64,000 bases of DNA. Source: Trypanosoma brucei. Its lineage: Eukaryota. The position numbers and the translations under genes are program-made. The stretch spans positions 3,360,001-3,424,000 of the forward strand of contig CH464491.1 in NCBI GenBank assembly GCA_000002445.1, read 5' to 3'. The notes below the pieces were generated by a model. It saw only the letters and a list, made by a program, of their open reading frames with translations. It did no database searches and was not told the DNA's origin. Positions 26,310 through 39,024 of this stretch are shown one piece after another; positions within the stretch are counted from its first letter, which is position 1, and each line of letters starts with the position of its first letter.

Positions 26310-28517
26310 CTAAACAATGCCTGCAATGCGCTTGTAGAGCCGGGGAAGCCACCACCACATTCCAACTAGAAGCTGCAATGCCAAAGCCACAGAGCTAAAA
26401 ACTAACACAACAAACATCACTGCCCACCCGCGTCTGTCCGCGGTACCGTCACCAGAGTCATTGCCGTTACCACGGACAGCTGCTAGCCACGCGGTGAGCC
26501 CCAGTATTAGTGCTACGCAACTCGAACAAACGGCAGTCACTAGAAGCACAGGAAGCACAGTTGTGAACAGAGCAGCGGTGGGTCTGACAGTGGCCTTCCC
26601 AAAGTTGTCCCGAACCACAGTGCGGCTCAGAAAGACAGCTCCCAATGACCGTAGCAAACCCCCCACCGCGATGGCGAATGAAAACGCACAGACAGCGGCA
26701 AGGGTGGCTGTGAGTTGTTTACCGTCAAAAAAAAATGCGACTATTAGTACCATAGCAGCAGTGGCAGGCCCGAGTTCCACAAAACGTACAAATGGGCCCA
26801 TACTTGGCACAAGACACAGCAACAACAGTGCTAACGTTGACAGGAGCAACACCACAACAGGACTGATCGCAATACCGTTAGGCCAATTTCCGCTGCCATC
26901 GACAACTGGGATGTCAGTCGCTTTGAAGTGGAGACTATCTAACACCGGCAGCGTCACTAACTCAGAGTCCACAGTAAGAAGAGATACCACTGCGACAAGG
27001 CACCCACAAGCCACACTGCGGATAAAGAACGACGGATCAAGACGCCCCAAACACGAAAGGAAGTTTGTGACATAATGAGATTTACCGCACGAACATGGTC
27101 CAGGCTGCAACATGGATGGAGGTAGTAGTAAGCAAATGCCGATAGCAAGGGAAAATGACACCAATGCGAGAACGGTATGTATGATAGCAGTATAACCCGC
27201 AGCAGCAGTAGTGGCAAATGCCGGAAGAACCCCAAAAGCCACCAGACGAGACATCAACCATGCTAGGCATACCGAGAGCGCTAGAAACGGAGGTCCAGCA
27301 ACATATCCCACATCAGCACAGGTAAACAGCAACAAAGATGCAAATGAACCAACGAAACTGGCTGCCTGAACAAGTTCTCGTACAACAAAAGAGGTAGTGA
27401 CATTCAAAAGGACACCATAAAGCAGACGGAAGTCGTCCACTACCAACATGGCTGTTGAAACGAGTAACACGACGTGAGGAACTTCCCACACACCACGAAA
27501 ACAAAACACAACTAACAGCGAAGAAACTGCGATTGCATGAAACGACATGAGCTTCAGCATCATGCACTTCCCACCTAAAAGATTATCCACAAACGGATTC
27601 GTCTTAAAAACATTGTATGATTCATGGTGTAACATTAGCATGCTGATAATAAAAACGGCAAACACATGCACCACTGCACGCCTCAATCCAAATGAAGAAT
27701 TCGATTCAGAAACCAAAGCTTCGGGGACAAAAACATCGCTTGGACTACCCTGAATCAAATGAACCTCACTGCCACAAAACAAGCACCTAAACACATCACC
27801 ATCAACGAAGACGGGAAATTCCTCACTACAGTAAGAATCCCATCTGCCAGCAGCGACAAGTGGTTCGTCAACAAAACGTTCTGCAGTAACGCTATGCAAT
27901 CCATCGAGAGTACCGTAGGTCCTTTCCAATATCGAACTATCACCGTTCCCACCGAAAGGCCCTCTTCCTGCACCCAACAGCGGTTCTTGATCACCACAGT
28001 CAGCAACACAGCGGTCTCCTGTCGCCACTAATTTAGAAGAACGTAGACCACTAACAGACCTACGCACATCAGTTACCGCACTGACAACTCCAACACACCC
28101 ACAATGAAAACTATCAACCTTTTCCTTAAGCGGCACATCTCGATCCACCCCAACACAAACAGATGGCTGCATCGACAAAACTCCGTATTCAATCTCTTTA
28201 CTACCGCTTGAAAATGTACCCGCAGTAGTGAAGCGGGACATACTATGCGATGAAGAGCGTGCTGAAAATATTGTTGCGCCCCTTCGGAAATCCCTTCCAG
28301 TAGAGTGCCGTGCTAAATACTCCTCATTTTCAATCACCGCTCTACTGGTAGTTTCAGTCTTCACAAATAAATTCACACAAGAAACAGACACAACGTCATC
28401 ATCGCTATCCATCAAAATATCTCGAACGTGCTCCACAAGACTCGCACCGTCACTTGCAGCAAGGCCGTGGTCCGACCCATCTACCTCTTGGCTGCCGAAC
28501 CACGTTTTACTCTCCAT
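26310..28517 (-). CDS. Polytopic membrane protein (~735 aa): ~250-aa soluble N-terminal region followed by ~10-12 predicted TM helices, possible transporter
   Basis: The ATG is at 28517 (the track start at 28520 is a GTG). Long hydrophobic helices run from residue ~290 to the C-terminus. The first ~100 aa are shared with the chimeric gene at 29194-32949. Confidence 0.7.
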   Translation of the reverse strand: MESKTWFGSQEVDGSDHGLAASDGASLVEHVRDILMDSDDDVVSVSCVNLFVKTETTSRAVIENEEYLARHSTGRDFRRGATIFSARSSSHSMSRFTTAGTFSSGSKEIEYGVLSMQPSVCVGVDRDVPLKEKVDSFHCGCVGVVSAVTDVRRSVSGLRSSKLVATGDRCVADCGDQEPLLGAGRGPFGGNGDSSILERTYGTLDGLHSVTAERFVDEPLVAAGRWDSYCSEEFPVFVDGDVFRCLFCGSEVHLIQGSPSDVFVPEALVSESNSSFGLRRAVVHVFAVFIISMLMLHHESYNVFKTNPFVDNLLGGKCMMLKLMSFHAIAVSSLLVVFCFRGVWEVPHVVLLVSTAMLVVDDFRLLYGVLLNVTTSFVVRELVQAASFVGSFASLLLFTCADVGYVAGPPFLALSVCLAWLMSRLVAFGVLPAFATTAAAGYTAIIHTVLALVSFSLAIGICLLLPPSMLQPGPCSCGKSHYVTNFLSCLGRLDPSFFIRSVACGCLVAVVSLLTVDSELVTLPVLDSLHFKATDIPVVDGSGNWPNGIAISPVVVLLLSTLALLLLCLVPSMGPFVRFVELGPATAAMVLIVAFFFDGKQLTATLAAVCAFSFAIAVGGLLRSLGAVFLSRTVVRDNFGKATVRPTAALFTTVLPVLLVTAVCSSCVALILGLTAWLAAVRGNGNDSGDGTADRRGWAVMFVVLVFSSVALALQLLVGMWWWLPRLYKRIAGIV

Positions 28518-30450
28518 CACCTCACCGGAAATTCAACCACTGATGTTGATATTGACTCGGAGAGGTCAGCACACAGCTATTACCGGTGCCTTCTTATCCT
28601 TTCCTATCCAGAACCCAAAACGCCCCCACCTCTTTTTCACTAATCCTTGCTCGTTACTATGACTACGCTGCACAAAGAAATACCGTTTGCAAGCCTGACA
28701 AATGGGGAAAAGGGCTACAGAGTGGAGCACTACAGTGGAAAATACGTGTGCGGTATAAGCACACAGCGACAGGAAGACACAACAGCCTCGGTCAGTTCGT
28801 TACAAACCCCAGAAGCTCAGAGATGCGGTACCTTCATACCCAACAGGTATGCACAAGGCAGCAACATACAGAAACGAGTTGAAGAAAGGAAAAAAGGAAA
28901 AAAGGAAAAAAGTAAGCAAACAATTACATACTTGGGAAGTGCTATGCCTCTTCAAAATACAGAAACGTGCTCGGCGCACCACCAATATCATATTAGACAA
29001 GAATGCCGTGCAGCGCCGGCCGCAACGCTCCAAATCACTTTAACGTCCACACAACGAAATACCGGAATGACGCTGAAAATGGTAGTAGCGCTTGGAGCGA
29101 AGCGCCCACCTACGCTATTTCCCGAAAACAAGCACAAATACAGGCAGTAATCTGCAATAGCTCAATGAAGGCGGTAAAGCACATGAGATACAGCTAACGG
29201 AGTTCGTAACGGCCAAACATAATCGATCCAACAGCAAGGACGAGCATCCCCACCGCAGAGGCTGAGAACGCAGCAGCCTCCTTCCACTCGGATATACCTC
29301 CCTCCTGCACGTACGCTGCAGCAACAGCGGGAGAGCAGCGCTGCAGCGCAGCAAGCATTGCCTCATGCCGATTCTGGCGCTGCTTGTGCATGTCGTCCAA
29401 AAGTTTCCGCACGTTGAATAACATTAAACGCACCCTGTCTTGCATCTGTTGAAGAAGGTCATTCGGGGCGGAAACTCCACTCGACAGGACCCGTGACTCA
29501 CCCGAACCTTCGCAGTGCTCGTGGCGCGGTGACACCATCAAACAATCCAGCTCCTCCCCGACCGCGTCGATTCGGGCTTGCAGTAAACGAAGATTCTCAT
29601 CTTGCCGTTTCCATGTCCCCTCAGCCCTCATTACACGGCGCTTATAATCACTTGCAGCAGCCTGCAGCTCTGTGCGCGCCCCATAGTTATCCCCTGAGTC
29701 GCTGTGCCTCTCAGCTAGTTGCATCACACGCTTGAAATGCCGAGCCTCCTTTATGCACGGAGCGATCTGTGAAACAACCTTGCCACAGCGCTGAATATCC
29801 CTTTCGATTGCCTTAATCTTCCTCAGTAGCAGCACGATTGGAGCACCCAGCGATTGCAGAGCAGAGATGTTATAGCTTTCCGCATTCTCCCCGGCACCCT
29901 CATCCGAGTTCGTTGTATGACAAAATTCACCATCCACCGCACGTTTGCTCCGTCTCCTCCGCTGGGAGGGTCGGTCATGAAGAACAGTGCCAAGTTCAGA
30001 ATGTCCGTGAACAGCACAGTCAAACTCAAAATAATCTTCCGCCAGTCCGCTCTCAGCACCCACGACAGATGTATCATAGGAACTATCAAGGGCATCCTCC
30101 AAACTACATGACCCCTCACCTTCTGAAAAATTAGCAAGCTTTGCCTGCGCAAAATCAACGTCAACAGAACAAGATTTTTCGTTCGGGGAACATGTGAGCT
30201 TTACCACATTTTTCGAAATGTCCCTCCCTGCATTTATTTCATTCAACTGCTTCATTAGTACAGCGTTTTCTTCCTTGAGTTTTCCAAGTTCAGTATGAAA
30301 AGGGTCACTAAACTTGGCACCACCCTCCATTTCATTAAGGTTTTCAGGCGCCTCTTTCGAATAATGCTCCTCAGCAAGTTGCTTTTTCAGTTCCTTCTCC
30401 AGTGCTGCCTTAGAACCAGCCACATCACTCAGTTGCTTCCTCAGTTCCCT
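28196..30450 (-). repeat. Segmental duplication copy 1. It contains the 5' end of the membrane-protein gene, a 670-bp intergenic region, and the 3' domain of the coiled-coil repeat gene. It is duplicated at 32630-34890 (period 4434 bp).
   Basis: 28196-28360 equals 32630-32795. 28430-29190 equals 32870-33625. 29194-30400 equals 33629-34840. A short divergent patch lies at 28360-28430 versus 32795-32870. Confidence 0.85.
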
Positions 30451-32949
30451 CAGTTCCTTCTCGAGTGATGATTTGGAACCAGCCACATCACTCAGTTGCT
30501 TCCTCAGTTCCTTCAGTTCCTTCTCGAGTGATGATTTGGAATCAGCCACATCACTCAGTTGCTTCCTCAGTTCCCTCAGTTCCTTCTCGAGTGATGATTT
30601 GGAATCAGCCACATCACTCGGTTGCTTCCTCAGTTCCTTCAGTTCCTTCTCGAGTGATGATTTGGAACCAGCCACATCACTCAGTTGCTTCCTCAGTTCC
30701 TTCAGTTCCTTCTCGAGTGATGATTTGGAATCAGCCACATCACTCGGTTGCTTCCTCAGTTCCTTCAGTTCCTTCTCGAGTGATGATTTGGAACCAGTCA
30801 CATCACTCAGTTGCTTCCTCAGTTCCTTCAGTTCCTTCTCGAGTGATGATTTGGAACCAGTCACATCACTCAGTTGCTTCCTCAGTTCCTTCAGTTCCTT
30901 CTCGAGTGATGATTTGGAACCAGTCACATCACTCAGTTGCTTCTTCAGTTCCTTCAGTTCCTTCTCGAGTGATGATTTGGAACCAGCCACATCACTCAGT
31001 TGCTTCCTCAGTTCCTTCAGTTCCTTCTCGAGTGATGATTTGGAATCAGCCACATCACTCAGTTGCTTCCCCAGTTCCTTCTCGAGTGATGATTTGGAAT
31101 CAGCCACATCACTCAGTTGCTTCCTCAGTTCCTTCAGTTCCTTCTCGAGTGATGATTTGGAACCAGTCACATCACTCAGTTGCTTCCTCAGTTCCTTCAG
31201 TTCCTTCTCGAGTGATGATTTGGAACCAGCCACATCACTCGGTTGCTTCCCCAGTTCCTTCTCGAGTGATGATTTGGAACCAGTCACATCACTCAGTTGC
31301 TTCCTCAGTTCCTTCAGTTCCTTCTCGAGTGATGATTTGGAACCAGTCACATCACTCAGTTGCTTCCCCAGTTCCTTCAGTTCCTTCTCGAGTGATGATT
31401 TGGAACCAGCCACATCACTCAGTTGCTTCCTCAGTTCCTTCAGTTCCTTCTCGAGTGATGATTTGGAATCAGCCACATCACTCAGTTGCTTCCCCAGCTC
31501 CTTCTCGAGTGATGATTTGGAACCAGCCACATCACATAGTTGCTTCCTCAGCTCCTTCAGCTCCTTCTCGAGTGATGATTTGGAACCAGTCACATCACTC
31601 AGTTGCTTCCTCAGTTCCTTCTCCAGTGCTGCCTTAGAACCAGCCACATCACTCAGTTGCTTCCTCAGCTCCTTCAGCTCCTTCTCGAGTGATGATTTGG
31701 AACCAGTCACATCACTCAGTTGCTTCCTCAGTTCCTTCAGTTCCTTCTCCAGTGCTGCCTTAGAACCAGCCACATCACTCAGTTGCTTCCTCAGCTCCTT
31801 CAGCTCCTTCTCGAGTGATGATTTGGAATCAGCCACATCACTCAGTTGCTTCCTCAGCTCCTTCAGCTCCTTCTCGAGTGATGATTTGGAATCAGCCACA
31901 TCACTCGGTTGCTTCTTCAGCTCTCTCTCTATCAATGTATTAGAATCATTCACAGCACCTAGCTGCTTTTTTGTTTCCTTCAGTTCGTTTTCTATTAGAA
32001 CCTTGGTGTCATTCACATCAGCAAGTTGTTTCCTTAGTTCCTTCAGTTCTTTTTCAATTAAAGCCTTGGAGTCATTTACATCACTTAGTTGCCTCCTCAG
32101 TTCCTTCAGTTCCTTCTCCAGTGATGATTTGGAATCAGTCACATCACTCAGTTGCTTCCTCAGCTCCTTCAGTTCATTTTCCATTAACGCCTTAGAATCA
32201 TTCACCCCACCGAGTTGCTTCTTTATACTGTCACTGCTTTCACCCTTTAGTTGACACTCAGGGCCACTTGATTTCTTTGTTTTTGTCTCAACTATCAGTT
32301 CATCCAGCTCCTTCTCGAGTGACGCTTTAGAATCAGTTACTTCCAGTAGTTGCTGTTTCAACTCCTTAAGTTCTTTTTCCATTAACGCCTTCGATTCGCT
32401 GAGGTTCCTTAATTGTTCTTCAATGTTGGAAAGGGAAGATGATTTCTGCTGATCTCCCTCTGTGTTGTGGCATCGTTCCTTTAAACTGTCCACTTTTCTG
32501 TGCATATCAAATTCCACTGCAGAAGTATCAGTAGCTTCGCTTCTACGGGCGCTTCCTTTCGAGTTCTCTCTTGTGCCGAACCTCTCATCCACTTGAGAGT
32601 TTGCATCAAGAGCACCGCATTCAATTGTCTGTCTGCCGCTTGAAAATGCACCCGCAGTAGTGAAGCGGGACATACTATGCGATGAAGAGCGTGCTGAAAA
32701 TATTGTTGCGCCCCTTCGGAAATCCCTTCCAGTAGAGTGCCGTGCTAAATACTCCTCATTTTCAATCACCGCTCTACTGATAGTTTCAGTCTTCACAAAA
32801 AGATCCTCCCAGGATGTGGAAACAGAATCATTTTCATCCGAACCCCTCGTTTTCCTCTTTTGCTCCACAAGACTCGCACCGTCACTTGCAGCAAGGCCGT
32901 GGTCCGACCCATCTACCTCTTGGCTGCCGAACCACGTTTTACTCTCCAT
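29194..32949 (-). CDS. Chimeric coiled-coil repeat protein, ~1251 aa. Its N-terminal ~100 aa are identical or similar to the membrane-protein N-terminus. It then has degenerate and near-perfect 21-aa repeats and a C-terminal domain ending in a hydrophobic tail anchor.
   Basis: A continuous ORF. The ATG at 32949 is in the same context as 28517. The repeat core is (S)LEKELKELRKQLSDV[AT][GD]SKS. The C-terminus (...AVGMLVLAVGSIMFGRYELR) is a predicted TM tail anchor. Confidence 0.65.
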   Translation of the reverse strand: MESKTWFGSQEVDGSDHGLAASDGASLVEQKRKTRGSDENDSVSTSWEDLFVKTETISRAVIENEEYLARHSTGRDFRRGATIFSARSSSHSMSRFTTAGAFSSGRQTIECGALDANSQVDERFGTRENSKGSARRSEATDTSAVEFDMHRKVDSLKERCHNTEGDQQKSSSLSNIEEQLRNLSESKALMEKELKELKQQLLEVTDSKASLEKELDELIVETKTKKSSGPECQLKGESSDSIKKQLGGVNDSKALMENELKELRKQLSDVTDSKSSLEKELKELRRQLSDVNDSKALIEKELKELRKQLADVNDTKVLIENELKETKKQLGAVNDSNTLIERELKKQPSDVADSKSSLEKELKELRKQLSDVADSKSSLEKELKELRKQLSDVAGSKAALEKELKELRKQLSDVTGSKSSLEKELKELRKQLSDVAGSKAALEKELRKQLSDVTGSKSSLEKELKELRKQLCDVAGSKSSLEKELGKQLSDVADSKSSLEKELKELRKQLSDVAGSKSSLEKELKELGKQLSDVTGSKSSLEKELKELRKQLSDVTGSKSSLEKELGKQPSDVAGSKSSLEKELKELRKQLSDVTGSKSSLEKELKELRKQLSDVADSKSSLEKELGKQLSDVADSKSSLEKELKELRKQLSDVAGSKSSLEKELKELKKQLSDVTGSKSSLEKELKELRKQLSDVTGSKSSLEKELKELRKQLSDVTGSKSSLEKELKELRKQPSDVADSKSSLEKELKELRKQLSDVAGSKSSLEKELKELRKQPSDVADSKSSLEKELRELRKQLSDVADSKSSLEKELKELRKQLSDVAGSKSSLEKELRELRKQLSDVAGSKAALEKELKKQLAEEHYSKEAPENLNEMEGGAKFSDPFHTELGKLKEENAVLMKQLNEINAGRDISKNVVKLTCSPNEKSCSVDVDFAQAKLANFSEGEGSCSLEDALDSSYDTSVVGAESGLAEDYFEFDCAVHGHSELGTVLHDRPSQRRRRSKRAVDGEFCHTTNSDEGAGENAESYNISALQSLGAPIVLLLRKIKAIERDIQRCGKVVSQIAPCIKEARHFKRVMQLAERHSDSGDNYGARTELQAAASDYKRRVMRAEGTWKRQDENLRLLQARIDAVGEELDCLMVSPRHEHCEGSGESRVLSSGVSAPNDLLQQMQDRVRLMLFNVRKLLDDMHKQRQNRHEAMLAALQRCSPAVAAAYVQEGGISEWKEAAAFSASAVGMLVLAVGSIMFGRYELR
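30370..31915 (-). repeat. 63-nt tandem repeat array (~24 units, some 54-nt variants) encoding 21-aa coiled-coil repeats. Degenerate units continue to ~32420.
   Basis: The unit is ccagccacatcactcagttgcttcctcagttccttcagttccttctcgagtgatgatttggaa, read on the plus strand. Confidence 0.9.
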
Positions 32950-34890
32950 CACCTCACCGGAAATTCAACCACTGATGTTGATATTGACTCGGAGAGGTCA
33001 GCACACAGCTATTACCGGTGCCTTCTTATCCTTTCCTATCCAGAACCCAAAACGCCCCCACCTCTTTTTCACTAATCCTTGCTCGTTACTATGACTACGC
33101 TGCACAAAGAAATACCGTTTGCAAGCCTGACAAATGGGGAAAAGGGCTACAGAGTGGAGCACTACAGTGGAAAATACGTGTGCGGTATAAGCACACAGCG
33201 ACAGGAAGACACAACAGCCTCGGTCAGTTCGTTACAAACCCCAGAAGCTCAGAGATGCGGTACCTTCATACCCAACAGGTATGCACAAGGCAGCAACATA
33301 CAGAAACGAGTTGAAGAAGAAAGGAAAAAAGGAAAAAAGGAAAAAAGTAAGCAAACAATTACATACTCGGGAAGTGCTATACCTCTTCAAAATACAGAAA
33401 CGTGGTCGGCGCACCACCAATATCATATTAGACAAGAATGCCGTGCAGCGCCGGCCGCAACGCTCCAAATCACTTTAACGTCCACACAACGAAATACCGG
33501 AATGACGCTGAAAATGGTAGTAGCGCTTGGAGCGAAGCGCCCACCTACGCTATTTCCCGAAAACAAGCACAAATACAGGCAGTAATCTGCAATAGCTCAA
33601 TGAAGGCGGTAAAGCACATGAGATACAGCTAACGGAGTTCGTAACGTTTATATACAGTAGATCCAACAGCAAGGACGAGCATCCCCACCGCAGAGGCTGA
33701 GAACGCAGCAGCCTCCTTCCACTCGGATATACCTCCCTCCTGCACGTACGCTGCAGCAACAGCGGGAGAGCAGCGCTGCAGCGCAGCAAGCATTGCCTCA
33801 TGCCGATTCTGGCGCTGCTTGTGCATGTCGTCCAAAAGTTTCCGCACGTTGAATAACATTAAACGCACCCTGTCTTGCATCTGTTGAAGAAGGTCATTCG
33901 GGGCGGAAACTCCACTCGACAGGACCCGTGACTCACCCGAACCTTCGCAGTGCTCGTGGCGCGGTGACACCATCAAACAATCCAGCTCCTCCCCGACCGC
34001 GTCGATTCGGGCTTGCAGTAAACGAAGATTCTCATCTTGCCGTTTCCATGTCCCCTCAGCCCTCATTACACGGCGCTTATAATCACTTGCAGCAGCCTGC
34101 AGCTCTGTGCGCGCCCCATAGTTATCCCCTGAGTCGCTGTGCCTCTCAGCTAGTTGCATCACACGCTTGAAATGCCGAGCCTCCTTTATGCACGGAGCGA
34201 TCTGTGAAACAACCTTGCCACAGCGCTGAATATCCCTTTCGATTGCCTTAATCTTCCTCAGTAGCAGCACGATTGGAGCACCCAGCGATTGCAGAGCAGA
34301 GATGTTATAGCTTTCCGCATTCTCCCCGGCACCCTCATCCGAGTTCGTTGTATGACAAAATTCACCATCCACCGCACGTTTGCTCCGTCTCCTCCGCTGG
34401 GAGGGTCGGTCATGAAGAACAGTGCCAAGTTCAGAATGTCCGTGAACAGCACAGTCAAACTCAAAATAATCTTCCGCCAGTCCGCTCTCAGCACCCACGA
34501 CAGATGTATCATAGGAACTATCAAGGGAATCCTCCAAACTACATGACCCCTCACCTTCTGAAAAATTAGCAAGCTTTGCCTGCGCAAAATCAACGTCAGC
34601 AGAACAAGATTTTTCGTTCGGGGAACATGTGAGCTTTACCACATTTTTCGAAATGTCCCTCCCTGCATTTATTTCATTCAACTGCTTCATTAGTACAGCG
34701 TTTTCTTCATTGAGTTTTCCAAGTTCAGTATGAAAAGGGTCACTAAACTTGGCACCACCCTCCATTTCATTAAGGTTTTCAGGCGCCTCTTTCGAATAAT
34801 GCTCCTCGGCAAGTTGCTTTTTCAGTTCCTTCTCCAGTGCTGCCTTAGAACCATTAACATCACTCAGTTGCTTCCTCAGTTCCTTCAGTT
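32630..34890 (-). repeat. Segmental duplication copy 2 (partner of 28196-30450)
   Basis: See copy 1. Near-identical over ~2.2 kb except one ~70-bp divergent patch. Confidence 0.85.
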
Positions 34891-37800
34891 CCTTCTCGAG
34901 TGATGATTTGGAACCAGCCACATCACTCGGTTGCTTCCTCAGTTCCTTAAGTTCCTTCTCGAGTGATGATTTGGAACCAGTCACATCACTCAGTTGCTTC
35001 TTCAGTTCCTTCAGTTCCTTCTCGAGTGATGATTTGGAACCAGTCACATCACTCAGTTGCTTCCTCAGCTCCTTCTCCTTCTCGAGTGATGATTTGGAAC
35101 CAGTCACATCACTCAGTTGCTTCTTCAGTTCCTTCTCTCGAGTGATGATTTGGAACCAGCCACATCACTCAGTTGCTTCCTCAGTTCCTTCAGTTCCTTC
35201 TCGAGTGATGATTTGGAATCAGCCACATCACTCAGTTGCTTCCCCAGTTCCTTCTCGAGTGATGATTTGGAACCAGCCACATCACTCAGTTGCTTCCTCA
35301 GTTCCTTCAGTTCCTTCTCGAGTGATGATTTGGAACCAGTCACATCACTCAGTTGCTTCCTCAGTTCCTTCAGTTCCTTCTCGAGTGATGATTTGGAACC
35401 AGTCACATCACTCAGTTGCTTCTTCAGTTCCTTCAGTTCCTTCTCGAGTGATGATTTGGAACCAGCCACATCACTCAGTTGCTTCCTCAGTTCCTTCAGT
35501 TCCTTCTCAAGTGATGATTTGGAACCAGTCACATCACTCAGTTGCTTCTTCAGTTCCTTCAGTTCCTTCTCGAGTGATGATTTGGAACCAGCCACATCAC
35601 TCAGTTGCTTCTTCAGTTCCTTCAGTTCCTTCTCGAGTGATGATTTGGAACCAGCCACATCACTCGGTTGCTTCCCCAGTTCCTTCTCGAGTGATGATTT
35701 GGAACCAGCCACATCACTCAGTTGCTTCCTCAGTTCCTTCAGTTCCTTCTCGAGTGATGATTTGGAACCAGTCACATCACTCAGTTGCTTCCTCAGTTCC
35801 TTCTCGAGTGATGATTTGGAATCAGCCACATCACTCGGTTGCTTCCTCAGTTCCTTCAGTTCCTTCTCGAGTGATGATTTGGAACCAGCCACATCACTCA
35901 GTTGCTTCCTCAGTTCATCCGGCTCCTTCTCGAGTGATGATTTGGAATCAGCCACATCACTCAATTGCTTCCTCAGTTCCTTCAGTTCCTTCTCGAGTGA
36001 TGATTTGGAACCAGCCACATCACTCAGTTGCTTCCTCAGTTCCTTCAGTTCCTTCTCGAGTGATGATTTGGAATCAGCCACATCACTCAGTTGCTTCCTC
36101 AGTTCCTTCAGTTCCTTCTCGAGTGATGATTTGGAACCAGCCACATCACTCAGTTGCTTCCTCAGTTCCTTCAGTTCCTTCTCGAGTGACGATTTGGAAT
36201 CAGCCACATCACTCAGTTGCTTCCTCAGTTCCTTCAGTTCCTTCTCGAGTGATGATTTGGAACCAGCCACATCACTCAGTTGCTTCCTCAGTTCCTTCTC
36301 GAGTGATGATTTGGAATCAGCCACATCACTCAGTTGCTTCCTCAGTTCCTTCAGTTCCTTCTCGAGTGATGATTTGGAACCAGCCACATCACTCAGTTGC
36401 TTCCTCAGTTCCTTCTCGAGTGACGATTTGGAACCAGCCACATCACTCAGTTGCTTCCTCAGTTCCTTCAGTTCCTTCTCGAGTGATGATTTGGAACCAG
36501 CCACATCACTCAGTTGCTTCCTCAGTTCCTTCTCGAGTGACGATTTGGAACCAGCCACATCACTCAGTTGCTTCTTCAGTTCATCCGGCTCCTTCTCGAG
36601 TGATGATTTGGAACCAGCCACATCACTCAGTTGCTTCCTCAGTTCCTTCTCGAGTGACGATTTGGAATCAGCCACATCACTCAGTTGCTTCCTCAGTTCC
36701 TTCAGTTCCTTCTCGAGTGATGATTTGGAACCAGTCACATCACTCGGTTGCTTCCTCAGTTCCTTCAGTTCCTTCTCGAGTGATGATTTGGAATCAGCCA
36801 CATCACTCGGTTGCTTCCTCAGTTCCTTCAGTTCCTTCTCGAGTGATGATTTGGAACCAGCCACATCACTCAGTTGCTTCCTCAGTTCCTTCTCGAGTGA
36901 TGATTTGGAATCAGCCACATCACTCAGTTGCTTCCTCAGTTCCTTCAGTTCCTTCTCGAGTGATGATTTGGAACCAGCCACATCACTCGGTTGCTTCCTC
37001 AGTTCCTTCAGTTCCTTCTCGAGTGATGATTTGGAATCAGTCACATCACTCAGTTGCTTCCTCAGTTCCTTCAGTTCTTTTTCCATCAATGCCCTCGACT
37101 CTGTCACCTTGTTCAGCTGCTTTTTTAGCTCCTTTTCTAGAAGCGTCATTGATCCAGTCATCTCGCTGAGTTGCTCGTTTAGTCCCCTCATTTCTCCTTT
37201 CAATGACGCCTCTAATTTTTCTCTGTTCATTTCTTGCTTTTCATTTTTCTTTTTGTCTTGAAGGTGGTTTTGTGACATCTGTTCATCGCATTGCGCCGTA
37301 TGGAAAATTGCCGTTGAAGTATTGCCAGACTGCCTTATTTTTTCCTCACAGTTTTTTGTGATGCTGTGCAGCTGTCGACTGCTATCTCTCGTTTGGTTAA
37401 CATCTTTGTGTGACTGAGCAATTGGTTGCATCCGCTGCCGTTTCGAATCTGCATCGGCGCACGATGATTGCTGTGGAGAGTCTTCATTTCTAAGGCGGTG
37501 GTGGCGCACCTGCAGTGGACTTTTGTCGAGGTGGCCCCACTGTGATCGGGTAATTTTACCCTCGTCGCGCTTTGCACTGTCGTGCACCGGGGAACTACTT
37601 TCACCTTGATGGATATAACGTGCACGATAGGGCGTACTGGTTCTGATTGTTGACCTCGCTGAAGGGCTAGATCGCGGAGATGGGCGGTGGAGCCCAGAAC
37701 CTGGGGATCCGTTTCTGCACAAAACGGTAGTGAACAGATTACATAGCCTTGCGTACTGGTCGCTGGTCAGGTCAACAGTGTCCTGAGAACGTTGTGACCG

Positions 37801-39024
37801 ACCGATGGTACAGAGCACACTTGAGTGTAAGATACGTTGGTGCTGCCGAGTTAACGATCGGACCCATGTCTTGGCAGCAAATCTTTCCACCGACACAAAT
37901 TCATCGTAGGCCCGCGGCGGAGTACATGCACGCTCGCTTGGATGAACATGATCCATTCTCGGTGCTCGAGCCCCATAGCGGCTTGGGCTCTTCCATCGGG
38001 AACAAGCTACCCCACGGTGATCAGTGTTTTCAAGGCGTTCGTAGTTATTCCATAATGAACGTATTTCTCGTGTAATGACATCCAACCGCTTGCGCACTTG
38101 TTCTACACGGTGTTGAAGATGAGTCGCGTCCTCGCCGGACTGTTGCACATCGCGTAAGTGGTGCTCGTGCCAATTCACGCAAATCATCCTCATATTAGCC
38201 ACGACCCACTGTTGCACGGAGCCAAGTGCATGACTCCCTTTGAGGGCTTCCTCGTACGTAAAGTTCAGAGAGTTAGTGTACTGTGAAACGAGTTCGTCGT
38301 GGCACTCCTTGCTGATGGTCAGCGGGTCAAACTGCATCAGCACCTGCAGTATCCCAGCACGGTGCAGAAAAGGCTGCATCTCACTCCATGTGCGCCTCCT
38401 CTCACCAAGCAGTACCATTACTAATCCCATGACACGCACGACAATATCCGGGGGTGTTCGGTACGACACAAGCTCTCTCCAATGCCGAGCATCGACCTGG
38501 CGCACCACGTGGCAGGCGTGCCTAAGCTGCATCTCAGCCTCTCGCTTCTTCGTGGCAACATCCAGATTTTTCATAGAAAGCTCACGATATAATTTTGCGC
38601 GCTCTTGCGAAAGCCGAACCGCTTCGTCTCTGTGCTGAATCAGCTGGGACTGTAGAGGAGGAATCCGTAGCAGAAGTTCGCGTCCCTCCTCCGTCGTTAC
38701 GGCAGCCAGGGCTTTTGTCAGCGGGCAGGCACCTCCCTCCTGATCACTTGGTACCAGAGGTTCTATGTACAAAGAGCGGCAAACAACATCGCTGCACACA
38801 ATTCCTAGGCTGCAACGCCACATGCCAGAAGATCGCTCAATGTATTCATACGCCACAATGTCGTCAGGGGCGACCTGAGGAAAGGAGTCCTGCCGCCACT
38901 GGAACTCCTCCAACCCCGATAAAAATTCACCATCGTCGCCCACGGCAAATAGTGGTGCTATAGTAAGGATTGAAGGTTGGTCACTGCCTGCCATTGTGCC
39001 TTCTTCTGGTATATTTACCTCCAT
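33629..39024 (-). CDS. Giant tail-anchored coiled-coil repeat protein (~1800 aa if contiguous). It has a ~690-aa N-terminal globular/coiled region, ~36 x 21-aa repeats and a C-terminal domain with a TM anchor. It is interrupted by a +2 frameshift at ~35125-35140 (the ORF track splits it into 33629-35107 and 35125-39096).
   Basis: The ATG at 39024 gives MEVNIPEEGTM.... The track start at 39096 is a TTG. The C-terminal 400 aa are near-identical to the C-terminus of 29194-32949. One repeat unit at 35101-35162 reads ttccttctctcgag instead of ttccttctcgag (an extra tc). Confidence 0.6.
34805..37075 (-). repeat. 63-nt tandem repeat array (~36 units, including 54-nt variants lacking the KEL codons). 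Degenerate units continue to ~37260.
   Basis: Same unit as the 30370-31915 array. Variable sites a/g, c/t and t/c give D/G, A/T, R/K/G and L/P alternatives. Confidence 0.9.

What the first reader, a model, noticed from the sequence alone, without database searches (positions are those of the whole stretch)
28196..34890. A 4.4-kb tandem segmental duplication creates an intact chimeric gene, fusing the membrane-protein N-terminus to the coiled-coil repeat protein
A ~4434-bp unit is present twice in tandem. The unit holds the 5' ~320 bp of the polytopic membrane-protein gene, the 670-bp upstream intergenic region, the 3' 1.2 kb of the giant repeat gene, and the 63-nt repeats. As a result, gene 29194-32949 starts with the same ATG context and ~100 codons as the membrane protein at 26310-28517 (MESKTWFGSQEVDGSDHGLAASDGASLVE...). 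It then runs through a 380-bp unique linker (32250-32630) into degenerate and near-perfect coiled-coil repeats and the tail-anchored C-terminal domain. It is a complete 1251-aa ORF, not a truncated fragment. This suggests a recently born fusion gene, or a paralog under construction, in which the duplicated 5' UTR and splice-acceptor region would allow expression. The duplicated upstream and N-terminal region also contains a ~70-bp patch that differs between the copies (28360-28430 versus 32795-32870). That patch argues against a trivial assembly copy.
Basis: seen in the sequence. Interest (0 to 1): 0.78.

Follow-up and report, generated by a model that had tools for sequence, protein, structure and literature searches.

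The report
Ancient chimeric gene kept young-looking
The tandem duplication and the intact fusion gene are real in this Trypanosoma brucei chromosome-11 window, but the fusion is not new: Trypanosoma vivax has the same architecture, so the gene most likely predates the split of the African trypanosomes, it is probably the annotated mitochondrial outer-membrane protein POMP17, and repeated gene conversion keeps it almost identical to its two parent genes.

Summary
Window 28183-32163 matches 32615-36579 at an offset of 4432-4435 nt. The non-repeat part is about 99.5% identical apart from two small diverged patches. ORF 29194-32949 (minus strand, 1251 aa) joins three things: the first ~105-112 codons of the neighbouring polytopic membrane gene, a unique linker, and the coiled-coil repeats, C-terminal domain and tail anchor of the upstream giant gene.

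The window is T. b. brucei TREU927 chromosome 11. The same three-gene layout is present in a gap-free T. b. equiperdum assembly, on a T. b. gambiense contig and, by architecture, in T. vivax. T. congolense has two near-identical C-terminal-domain proteins. T. cruzi and Leptomonas have only giant gene then membrane gene, and T. theileri, whose locus has gaps, shows a single C-terminal domain.

So the reading "recently born or under construction" is not supported. Both paralogues share 12 strain-specific substitutions, and no site supports orthology outside the patches. Synonymous sites in the 61-nt patch are saturated (pS 0.83). This points to an old duplication homogenised by gene conversion.

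The gene is most probably Tb927.11.12880 (POMP17), which has been detected in mitochondrial proteomics.

It is a new instance of known processes: a chimeric gene made by partial tandem duplication, followed by concerted evolution. Interest is moderate.

The parts
26310..28517 (-). Polytopic membrane-protein gene M (735 aa). It is the parent of the chimera's 5' end.
   Evidence: 100% identical to XP_829348.1/EAN80236.1 of T. b. brucei TREU927. There are about 14 hydrophobic peaks, the first near residue 278. No Pfam match. The N-terminal motif SRxxIExxxYLxxH is shared with the upstream-of-CARP2 gene in T. vivax and T. cruzi, and a similar motif sits at the N-terminus of the gene in the same position in Leptomonas.
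28183..28517 (-). Proximal copy of the shared 5' coding segment (M codons 1-112).
   Evidence: Aligns with 32615-32949. pS = 0 outside patch 1. Codons 105-111 are still alignable but saturated (pS 0.78).
28368..28428 (-). Patch 1, M version (HVRDILMDSDDDVVSVSCVN). Its partner is 32800-32860.
   Evidence: 61 nt with no indel. One search lists 40 differing positions; the direct count gives 24 identities. It is not an inversion. pS 0.83, pN 0.52. Each version is kept in its own gene in TREU927, IVM-t1 and DAL972.
28518..29193 (-). Intergenic region, proximal copy: chimera 3' UTR, polypyrimidine tract (about 28875-28915) and M 5' UTR.
   Evidence: Near-identical to 32950-33628. The sequence and the polypyrimidine tract were read.
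29194..30387 (-). C-terminal domain plus tail anchor of the chimeric gene.
   Evidence: 98% aa identity to the giant-gene copy. There is a single hydrophobic segment at aa 1227-1245, followed by 6 residues. Orthologues were found in T. congolense, T. vivax, T. theileri and T. conorhini.
29212..29224 (-). Patch 2: the chimera tail reads IMFGRYELR, against TVYKRYELR in the giant gene (33647-33659).
   Evidence: 8 of 13 nt differ. The pattern is orthologous in both strains. The motif Y-K-[RKQ]-Y is present in 9 of 10 aligned tails, and only the T. brucei chimera departs from it.
30388..31890 (-). Near-perfect 63/54-nt (21/18-aa) coiled-coil repeats of the chimeric gene.
   Evidence: One heptad register places L/L/V at 83% of the a and d positions.
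31891..32439 (-). Degenerate repeats specific to the chimeric gene.
   Evidence: The same units occur in IVM-t1 (P0003), DAL972 (P0137) and OVI (P0005).
32440..32614 (-). Unique linker of the chimeric gene (about aa 113-170).
   Evidence: No homologue anywhere in the window by DNA or protein comparison. 98.8-100% conserved in IVM-t1 and OVI.
32615..32949 (-). Distal copy of the shared 5' coding segment, forming the start of the chimeric gene (ATG at 32949).
29194..32949 (-). Complete chimeric ORF (1251 aa), probably Tb927.11.12880 / POMP17.
   Evidence: The ORF is shown. The IVM-t1 orthologue RHW68072.1 is named 'Proteasome Maturation Protein 17'. Tb927.11.12880 = POMP17 in PMC6686227. CARP2, two genes downstream, is Tb927.11.12860.
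32950..33628 (-). Intergenic region, distal copy.
33629..34822 (-). C-terminal domain plus tail anchor of the giant gene G.
34823..37100 (-). Repeat array of the giant gene, with a frame-shifting 2-nt insertion near 35135.
   Evidence: The gene is an intact 1384-aa ORF in IVM-t1.
37101..39024 (-). N-terminal domain of the giant gene. It contains a homologue of the dynein microtubule-binding stalk at 38080-38598. It is not part of the duplication.
   Evidence: Pfam PF12777, E 1.2e-5. phmmer E 3e-10 to the dynein microtubule-binding domain 5ayh_A.

Best explanation
**Origin (inferred).** The locus is a three-gene array: G, then the chimera, then M. It was produced by a single partial tandem duplication in an ancestor of the salivarian (African) trypanosomes. 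The duplicated segment ran from just upstream of the repeat array of G to about codon 105-112 of M. G is a tail-anchored coiled-coil protein with a dynein-like microtubule-binding head. M is a polytopic membrane protein.

The junction produced an in-frame gene. From M it takes the polypyrimidine tract and trans-splice region, the 5' UTR, the start codon and a soluble N-terminal module. From G it takes the coiled-coil stalk, the C-terminal domain, the tail anchor and the 3' UTR. Trypanosome genes are transcribed polycistronically and need only a splice-acceptor region, so such a partial duplicate would be expressed from the start. This step rests on established knowledge of trypanosome gene expression and is not shown here.

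**Maintenance (pattern shown, mechanism inferred).** Since then, recurrent gene conversion or unequal exchange between the two tandem units has homogenised everything that is still alignable: the repeats, the C-terminal domain, the intergenic region and the first ~104 codons. It stops where homology ends. The copies therefore look about 0.5% diverged.

Two short islands escape homogenisation and mark each gene. One covers codons 30-50 of the N-terminal module. The other covers the last residues after the transmembrane segment.

**Product (inferred).** The product is most probably POMP17 (Tb927.11.12880). It would be a rod-like, tail-anchored protein of the mitochondrial outer membrane that carries the head motif of M in place of the microtubule-binding head of G.
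For: **The locus is real and identified.**
- M is 100% identical to TREU927 XP_829348.1.
- A gap-free T. b. equiperdum IVM-t1 locus has G (intact, 1384 aa), the chimera (1098 aa) and M (735 aa), with the same junction, linker and patches.
- A DAL972 contig carries chimera-specific degenerate repeats, a C-terminal domain with the chimera tail, the intergenic region and the M 5' end with the M patch.

**The duplication is old.**
- T. vivax locus L009 has a gene that starts with 95 codons identical to its M gene. It then runs in frame into its own linker, 28-aa repeats, a C-terminal domain and a tail anchor. A 1019-bp segment (end of the C-terminal domain, intergenic region, M 5' end) is present twice at 100% identity.
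- The identity boundaries in T. vivax and T. brucei lie within about 5-13 aligned residues of each other.
- T. congolense has two proteins whose C-terminal domains differ by 3 substitutions plus one patch. One protein has the microtubule-binding head. The other lies two accession numbers before CARP2.
- T. cruzi (two gap-free assemblies) and Leptomonas have G then M only, with no segmental repeat; T. theileri, whose locus has gaps, shows one C-terminal domain.

**The copies evolve in concert.**
- In a four-way alignment of both copies from both strains, 12 substitution sites are strain-specific and shared by both paralogues.
- No site follows orthology outside the two patches (and a neighbouring site at 28348) or beyond the boundary.

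**The patch is a relic of old divergence.**
- Patch 1 has pS 0.83 against pS 0 in its flanks.
- For calibration, T. brucei against T. vivax gives pS 0.79, and TREU927 against IVM-t1 gives 0.006-0.024.

**Expression and identity.**
- Tb927.11.12880 is listed as POMP17, mitochondrial, in a quantitative proteomics table (PMC6686227).
- CARP2 = Tb927.11.12860 fixes the gene numbering (PMC3811416).
- Concerted evolution of T. brucei tandem duplicates is an established pattern (PMC1855330).

**Protein architecture.** One C-terminal hydrophobic segment followed by 6 residues, and a heptad register in the 21-aa unit.
Against: - Linker homology between the T. brucei and T. vivax chimeras is undetectable (z = -1.1). 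The orthologous M residues 106-200 are equally undetectable, so this test is uninformative. A single origin therefore rests on architecture and junction position.
- The N-terminus of the T. congolense M-proximal copy is unknown, because the contig starts inside the repeats.
- The T. vivax repeat array has four small frame-shifting indels. They look like consensus errors, but the gene could be a pseudogene there.
- I could not see the TriTrypDB gene model. The equation of this ORF with Tb927.11.12880 is indirect. One published table implies a length of 0.43 kb for that gene ID.
- Peptides from the repeats and the C-terminal domain cannot tell the chimera from G.
- The exact 1251-aa protein is not in the protein collection.
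- The short-read T. equiperdum OVI scaffold shows the M-type patch next to the chimera linker. This is either an assembly collapse or a real conversion.
Confidence: 0.78

Rival explanations
1. Recent tandem duplication. The fusion gene was born recently in T. brucei, and the low divergence reflects its age. The patch would be a later local change.
For: About 99.5% identity over about 2.1 kb of non-repeat sequence, including non-coding DNA.
Against: - The gene is present with the same junction, linker and patches in three T. brucei subspecies.
- T. vivax has the same architecture.
- 12 strain-specific substitutions are shared by both copies.
- Synonymous sites in the patch and at the boundary codons are saturated (pS 0.83 and 0.78) next to flanks with pS 0.
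Confidence: 0.03
2. Parallel origins. Similar partial tandem duplications arose independently in the T. vivax lineage and in the T. brucei (and T. congolense) lineage. Recombination between the G repeats and the M 5' region might favour this.
For: - The linkers of the two species show no detectable similarity.
- The repeat units differ: 21 aa in T. brucei, 28 aa in T. vivax and T. congolense.
- The T. vivax duplicate is 100% identical and shorter, at 1019 bp.
Against: - The order of parts is the same, and the junctions lie within about 5-13 aligned residues.
- The orthologous M region just after the junction is equally unalignable between the species, so the lack of linker similarity carries no weight.
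- The T. brucei patch alone already shows divergence at the between-species level.
Confidence: 0.1
3. Assembly artefact. The repeat gene was mis-joined or duplicated by the assembler, so the chimeric ORF does not exist in the genome.
For: - The locus is hard to assemble. In DAL972 it is broken by gaps and one piece is misplaced. In OVI the two genes are collapsed into one 986-aa model.
- The TREU927 giant gene carries a 2-nt frameshift.
- The exact protein is absent from the collection.
Against: - The copies differ at fixed, gene-specific patches.
- The unique linker is in frame.
- The same structure is present in the gap-free IVM-t1 assembly, with a different number of repeats.
- It is also present on the DAL972 contig and in T. 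vivax.
Confidence: 0.02
4. The patches are not relics. They were pasted in by ectopic conversion from a third, diverged paralogue elsewhere in the genome, or were driven by positive selection after a more recent homogenisation.
For: - The patch edges are sharp and there are no indels. Divergence is very high over 61 nt (40 differing positions; 24 identities).
- Patch 2 changes a motif that is otherwise nearly invariant.
Against: - No second copy of either patch exists in the 64-kb window.
- pN (0.52) is lower than pS (0.83), so there is no excess of amino-acid change.
- The rest of the genome could not be searched.
Confidence: 0.1

Closest known systems
Concerted evolution of tandem gene duplicates in T. 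brucei (Jackson 2007, BMC Evol Biol 7:54; PMC1855330)
   Same: Paralogues within a genome are more alike than orthologues. Homogenisation coexists with local divergence where structural heterogeneity interrupts homology. The copies sit in one polycistronic unit.
   Different: Here the repeating unit is not a whole gene. It is the 3' part of one gene, the intergenic region and the 5' part of a different gene. Conversion therefore couples the evolution of pieces of three different proteins. I found no mention of this locus in that paper.
Chimeric genes formed by partial tandem duplication (a general class known from Drosophila and other eukaryotes; from my own knowledge)
   Same: One duplication leaves both parents intact and creates a junction-spanning ORF. 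The ORF takes its 5' regulatory and coding sequence from one parent and its 3' part from the other.
   Different: It lies in a polycistronic, trans-splicing genome, where only the splice-acceptor region has to be co-duplicated. It is retained across the salivarian trypanosomes, but gene conversion masks its age.
POMP17 (Tb927.11.12880), 'present in the outer mitochondrial membrane proteome' protein 17
   Same: The position is two genes upstream of CARP2 (Tb927.11.12860). The IVM-t1 orthologue carries the transferred name. A tail anchor fits an outer-membrane location.
   Different: The identity is inferred, not read from the reference annotation. The papers I could read treat it as a conserved hypothetical and say nothing about a chimeric origin.
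Dynein heavy-chain microtubule-binding stalk (Pfam PF12777)
   Same: The parental giant gene has a significant match to it.
   Different: The chimeric gene lacks this domain altogether (protein 4). It kept only the stalk repeats, the C-terminal domain and the anchor.

Membership tests
Chimeric gene from a partial tandem duplication | Two adjacent copies of one segment, in the same order and orientation | tested here: met
   28183-32163 against 32615-36579, offset 4432-4435 nt.
Chimeric gene from a partial tandem duplication | An open reading frame spans the junction and combines the 5' part of one parent with the 3' part of the other | tested here: met
   The 1251-aa ORF 29194-32949 consists of M codons 1-~112, a linker, and the G-type repeats, C-terminal domain and anchor.
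Chimeric gene from a partial tandem duplication | Both parent genes remain flanking the chimera | tested here: met
   M is intact. G is intact in IVM-t1 but frameshifted in this window.
Chimeric gene from a partial tandem duplication | Outgroups have the unduplicated arrangement | tested here: met
   T. cruzi (three assemblies, two of them gap-free) and Leptomonas have G then M only. T. theileri shows one C-terminal domain but its locus has gaps.
Concerted evolution by gene conversion | Derived substitutions are shared by the paralogues within a lineage but not between lineages | tested here: met
   12 strain-specific sites are shared by both copies. No orthology-pattern sites occur outside the patches.
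Concerted evolution by gene conversion | A mosaic of near-identical tracts with sharply bounded old divergence | tested here: met
   pS 0 in the flanks, 0.83 in patch 1 and 0.78 at the boundary codons. Calibration.
Concerted evolution by gene conversion | Conversion tracts observed directly, in populations or crosses | not testable with these tools
   This needs T. brucei population resequencing with long reads.
Tail-anchored membrane protein | A single transmembrane segment at the extreme C-terminus and no other hydrophobic segment | tested here: met
   The maximum 19-residue hydropathy is 2.01 at aa 1227-1245, followed by 6 residues. The next best value is 1.24.
Tail-anchored membrane protein | Post-translational insertion and location in the mitochondrial outer membrane | not testable with these tools
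   The only support is the proteomic label for Tb927.11.12880.
POMP17 / Tb927.11.12880 | The ORF coincides with the reference gene model of that ID | tested here: inconclusive
   Gene order relative to CARP2 = Tb927.11.12860 and the name transferred in IVM-t1 agree. The TREU927 annotation could not be retrieved. One table implies 0.43 kb for this ID.
Dynein-stalk (PF12777) containing protein | A match to the microtubule-binding stalk profile | tested here: not met
   No Pfam match for chimera residues 1-183 or for the C-terminal domain. Only the giant gene matches.

The most novel reading that the evidence does not exclude
The two conversion-resistant islands may be functional switches held by selection inside an otherwise homogenised array. 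The tail patch (FGRY in place of the near-invariant YK[RKQ]Y) would send the T. brucei chimera to a different membrane, or through a different insertion route, than the microtubule-binding parent G. The N-terminal patch would tune the partner binding of a head module shared with the polytopic protein M. If so, the array would be a natural domain-swap set: same stalk and anchor with different heads, and same head with different bodies. Gene conversion would tie the co-evolution of three organelle-surface proteins together.
Probability: 0.15. Interest if true: 0.65.

Novelty: new member of a known kind. Interest (0 to 1): 0.42.

Why it matters
- **A caution for genome scans.** Near-identical tandem copies in trypanosome genomes cannot be dated from their similarity. 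Here, a gene that appears to predate the split of the African trypanosomes looks about 0.5% diverged from its parents.
- **A worked example of gene birth.** A polycistronic, trans-splicing genome can turn a partial duplication directly into an expressed new gene.
- **An origin for POMP17.** It gives a poorly characterised mitochondrial outer-membrane protein an origin and a domain logic: the stalk and anchor of a microtubule-binding tether, with the head replaced by the N-terminal motif of the neighbouring membrane protein.
- **Practical points.** It flags annotation and assembly errors at this locus in DAL972, OVI and IVM-t1. It also warns that short reads, RNAi fragments and most peptides cannot separate the three genes.

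Tried and rejected
- **Exact-protein look-ups.** Look-ups of M, the chimera, the 302-aa CARP2 and P0001 to recover the annotated TREU927 record all returned nothing. The reference gene models were therefore never seen.
- **Homologue search with the whole chimera.** Coiled-coil words swamped it. It returned only the IVM-t1 orthologue, M and unrelated coiled-coil proteins.
- **Inversion test on patch 1.** The reverse complement gives 11 of 61 identities against 24 of 61 in direct orientation, so inversion is rejected. No other copy of either patch lies in the window at up to 15 mismatches.
- **Linker homology.** None was found to G, to M or to anything else in the window. None was found between the T. 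brucei and T. vivax linkers either, and the control shows that test has no power.
- **Search for a 141-aa ATG ORF.** This was meant to explain the 0.43-kb length implied for Tb927.11.12880 in PMC4022737. No such ORF exists. About 425 bp is roughly the uniquely mappable part of the chimera, but that is only a guess.
- **Literature.**
  - The Niemann et al. 2013 outer-membrane proteome paper is not held.
  - The old-style IDs Tb11.52.0005-0008 gave nothing relevant.
  - Jackson 2007 has no hit for 'chimeric', 'mosaic', 'truncated', 'partial duplicat' or the old-style ID prefixes Tb11.01/Tb11.52.
- **Repeat-array collinearity.** The orders of unit variants in the chimera and in G are not collinear, so they say nothing about age.
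- **Not done.** Structure prediction was not run. The alignments allowed as input would have been too shallow to be useful.

Full report

Yes. A self-comparison of the window gives one long alignment, 28183-32163 against 32615-36579 (4028 columns, 93.5% identity). Exact or near-exact 300-nt pairs lie at spacings of 4432 and 4435 nt.

On the minus strand the ORFs run in this order:
- a giant repeat gene, 39096 to 33629, here split into ORFs of 1323 and 492 aa;
- a 1251-aa ORF, 32949 to 29194;
- a 735-aa polytopic membrane protein, 28517 to 26310.

A global alignment of the non-repeat part of the two units shows that homology begins at 28183/32615. Outside two islands there are only about ten substitutions and one short indel in the polypyrimidine tract, over about 2.1 kb.
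One search lists 40 differing positions. The direct count gives 24 identities.
- Patch 2 was missed: 29212-29224 against 33647-33659, 8 of 13 nt different. It changes the last residues after the transmembrane segment from TVYKRYELR to IMFGRYELR.

The stretch with no homologue in the window is about 215 nt (32400-32614), not 380 nt. The giant gene is interrupted by a 2-nt insertion in one repeat unit near 35135.

**2. Where the window comes from and what the genes are**

The membrane protein is 100% identical to XP_829348.1 of T. b. brucei TREU927, on a 5.26-Mb record, so the window is most likely chromosome 11.

The gene downstream of it is CARP2 (DUF4464/CFAP299). The literature gives its ID as Tb927.11.12860 (PMC3811416). 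Oligopeptidase B follows.

In the T. b. equiperdum IVM-t1 assembly the orthologue of the chimeric ORF (RHW68072.1, 1098 aa) is named 'Proteasome Maturation Protein 17'. I read that name as a wrong expansion of POMP17, 'present in the outer mitochondrial membrane proteome'. PMC6686227 lists Tb927.11.12880 as POMP17, mitochondrial, in a quantitative proteomics table.

Counting gene IDs in steps of ten from CARP2 gives 12860 for CARP2, 12870 for M and 12880 for the chimera. The chimeric ORF is therefore most probably the already annotated POMP17. I could not retrieve the reference annotation to confirm this. One published table implies a length of only 0.43 kb for that ID, which I cannot explain.

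**3. Protein anatomy**

The chimera has a single strongly hydrophobic segment at residues 1227-1245, followed by six residues, and no other hydrophobic segment. That is the profile of a tail anchor.

The 21-aa repeat unit places L/L/V at 83% of the a and d positions in one heptad register, so it should form a coiled coil. The 18-aa units lack three residues.

The shared N-terminal ~105 residues are soluble: the first hydrophobic segment of M lies near residue 278. They contain a motif, SRxxIExxxYLxxH, that is also present in the corresponding gene of T. vivax and T. cruzi. A similar motif (SYRVVWEHDEHLARI) sits at the N-terminus of the gene in the same position in Leptomonas. The module therefore belongs natively to M.

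The giant gene G has an N-terminal homologue of the dynein microtubule-binding stalk (Pfam PF12777; E 3e-10 to the mouse dynein microtubule-binding domain 5ayh_A). The chimera lacks it.

The chimera thus keeps G's stalk, C-terminal domain and anchor, and replaces G's head with the head of M.

**4. It is not an assembly artefact**

- The gap-free IVM-t1 locus (L001) has G as one intact 1384-aa ORF, then the chimera, then M. The junction, linker and both patches are the same, but the repeat numbers differ.
- In T. b. gambiense DAL972 the syntenic site has a 100-N gap in place of the duplicated region (L002). The missing piece sits about 0.95 Mb away on the same record, between two 100-N gaps (coordinates). 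It carries chimera-specific degenerate repeats, a C-terminal domain with the chimera tail IMFGRYELR, the intergenic region and the M 5' end with the M-type patch (L010).
- The short-read T. equiperdum OVI scaffold collapses the chimera 5' end onto the body of M across a 10-N gap. That is an artefact, but it shows that the linker exists there too.

**5. How old is it?**

*Outgroups.* Three T. cruzi assemblies, two of them gap-free, have one G-type gene (microtubule-binding head, repeats, C-terminal domain) followed directly by M. They have no segmental repeat. T. theileri shows one C-terminal domain, but its locus has gaps. Leptomonas pyrrhocoris also has G then M.

*T. vivax.* The locus (L009) contains:
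- a gene whose first 95 codons are identical to those of its M gene;
- the same gene continuing in frame into its own linker, 84-nt repeats, a C-terminal domain and a tail anchor;
- a 1019-bp segment (last 195 nt of the C-terminal domain, the intergenic region and the M 5' end) present twice at 100% identity.

The points where identity ends in T. vivax and T. brucei lie within about 5-13 aligned residues of each other.

*T. congolense.* It has two proteins whose C-terminal domains differ by three substitutions and one short patch. One is TCIL3000_11_13290, which has the microtubule-binding head. The other (CCD12719.1) starts inside perfect 28-aa repeats at a contig end. Its accession is two before that of CARP2 (CCD12721.1), so I infer it is the M-proximal copy.

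The most parsimonious reading is one duplication in the salivarian ancestor.

**6. Why the copies look young**

I aligned four sequences: both TREU927 copies and both IVM-t1 copies of the C-terminal domain, the intergenic region and the 5' segment.
- Twelve substitution sites, from 30303 to 28277, separate the strains and are shared by both paralogues within each strain.
- Not one site groups the sequences by gene, except inside the two patches, at position 28348 next to patch 1, and beyond the homology boundary.

This is the signature of concerted evolution. Conversion has swept both sides of patch 1 since the two strains separated, without erasing the patch.

Within the coding part:
- pS is 0 in the flanks (codons 1-29 and 51-104);
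- pS is 0.83 in patch 1 (pN 0.52);
- pS is 0.78 in codons 105-111 at the boundary.

For calibration, CARP2 and oligopeptidase B give pS 0.79 between T. brucei and T. vivax, and 0.006-0.024 between TREU927 and IVM-t1. The patch and the boundary codons therefore carry divergence at the between-species level. They are best read as relics of the old duplication.

The number of synonymous sites is small (13), so this supports the argument rather than carrying it alone.

Concerted evolution among T. brucei tandem duplicates, with divergence persisting where structure interrupts homology, is a described general pattern (PMC1855330).

**7. Mechanism, with the status of each step**

Shown:
- the structure of the units;
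- the in-frame junction;
- the presence of the chimera in several genomes;
- its absence from the T. cruzi and Leptomonas loci;
- the strain-by-strain homogenisation;
- the two gene-specific islands;
- the duplicated polypyrimidine tract upstream of both start codons.

Inferred:
- that a single ancestral event made the chimera;
- that the homogenising process is gene conversion or unequal sister-chromatid exchange between the tandem units;
- that the duplicated splice-acceptor region gave immediate expression, which follows from established knowledge of polycistronic transcription and trans-splicing in trypanosomes;
- that the protein sits in the mitochondrial outer membrane, which rests on the POMP17 label;
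- that selection maintains the islands.

The tail island deserves note. The motif Y-K-[RKQ]-Y after the transmembrane segment is present in nine of ten aligned tails, from Leptomonas to T. brucei G. These include the T. vivax chimera and both T. congolense copies. Only the T. brucei chimera departs from it.

**8. Rivals**

- Recent birth is contradicted by sections 5 and 6.
- Parallel origins in T. vivax and T. brucei cannot be fully excluded. The linkers are unalignable between the species, but so are the orthologous M residues next to the junction, so that test has no power.
- An assembly artefact is contradicted by section 4.
- Import of the patches from a third locus could not be tested beyond the window.

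**9. Verdict**

The evolutionary part is wrong: the fusion is an established gene that appears to predate the split of the African trypanosomes. It is very probably the known POMP17. Gene conversion disguises its age.

It is a new and instructive instance of two known processes, not a new kind of system. The most interesting loose ends are the conversion-resistant tail patch and the parental protein, a tail-anchored protein with a dynein-like microtubule-binding head.

Noticed in passing
window 38080-38598 (minus), within the giant gene 33629-39024: The parental giant gene combines a homologue of the dynein microtubule-binding stalk (E 3e-10 to 5ayh_A; Pfam PF12777) with a long coiled coil and a C-terminal tail anchor. 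The G-then-M gene pair is conserved in T. cruzi and Leptomonas. It looks like a candidate tether between an organelle and microtubules.
   Followed up: partly
window about 35130-35140: A 2-nt insertion (CTCGAG-AG-AAGGAA) in one 63-nt repeat unit splits the TREU927 giant gene into ORFs of 1323 and 492 aa. The IVM-t1 orthologue is one intact 1384-aa ORF. This could be a sequencing error or a strain-specific pseudogene.
   Followed up: partly
L001 9998-13297 (T. b. equiperdum IVM-t1, RHW68072.1): The product name 'Proteasome Maturation Protein 17' looks like an automated mis-expansion of the trypanosome acronym POMP17 (outer mitochondrial membrane proteome). The protein has nothing to do with proteasome maturation.
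   Followed up: partly
L002 6182-6281 and L010 9676-14157 (T. b. gambiense DAL972, FN554974.1): The duplicated region is replaced by a 100-N gap at the syntenic site. The contig holding the chimera 3' half and the M 5' half is scaffolded about 0.95 Mb away, which yields the fragment models CBH18741.1 (675 aa) and P0002 (452 aa).
   Followed up: yes
L004 1959-4931 (T. equiperdum OVI, TEOVI_000455900): This 986-aa model joins the chimera N-terminus, linker and repeats to the body of M across a 10-N gap. It also shows the M-type patch next to the chimera linker. It is probably a short-read collapse, but it could be a real conversion that erased the patch.
   Followed up: partly
L009 5785-7322 (T. 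vivax): No microtubule-binding N-domain gene lies between prefoldin and the chimera. Only the last 195 nt of a C-terminal domain remain. T. vivax may have lost the parental giant gene and kept only the chimera.
   Followed up: partly
L009 8600-9880 (T. vivax): The 84-nt repeat array has four small frame-shifting indels (+1, +2 and one garbled 113-nt unit). The first and last reading frames are the same. These look like long-read consensus errors confined to the repeats.
   Followed up: partly
window 30473-32254, 34908-37169, 35117-37261 (plus strand): Long plus-strand ORFs of 593-753 aa are stop-free antisense frames of the repeat arrays. They are not evidence of genes.
   Followed up: yes
L005-L008, about 8500-9730: A COMM_HN-domain gene lies between M and CARP2 in T. 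cruzi and T. theileri. No gene is called there in T. brucei, T. vivax or Leptomonas.
   Followed up: no
PMC4022737, RNAi screen table: The read density quoted for Tb927.11.12880 (161 reads, 378 per kb) implies a length of 0.43 kb, far shorter than the 3.76-kb ORF. About 425 bp is roughly the uniquely mappable part of the chimera, but the reason is unknown.
   Followed up: partly
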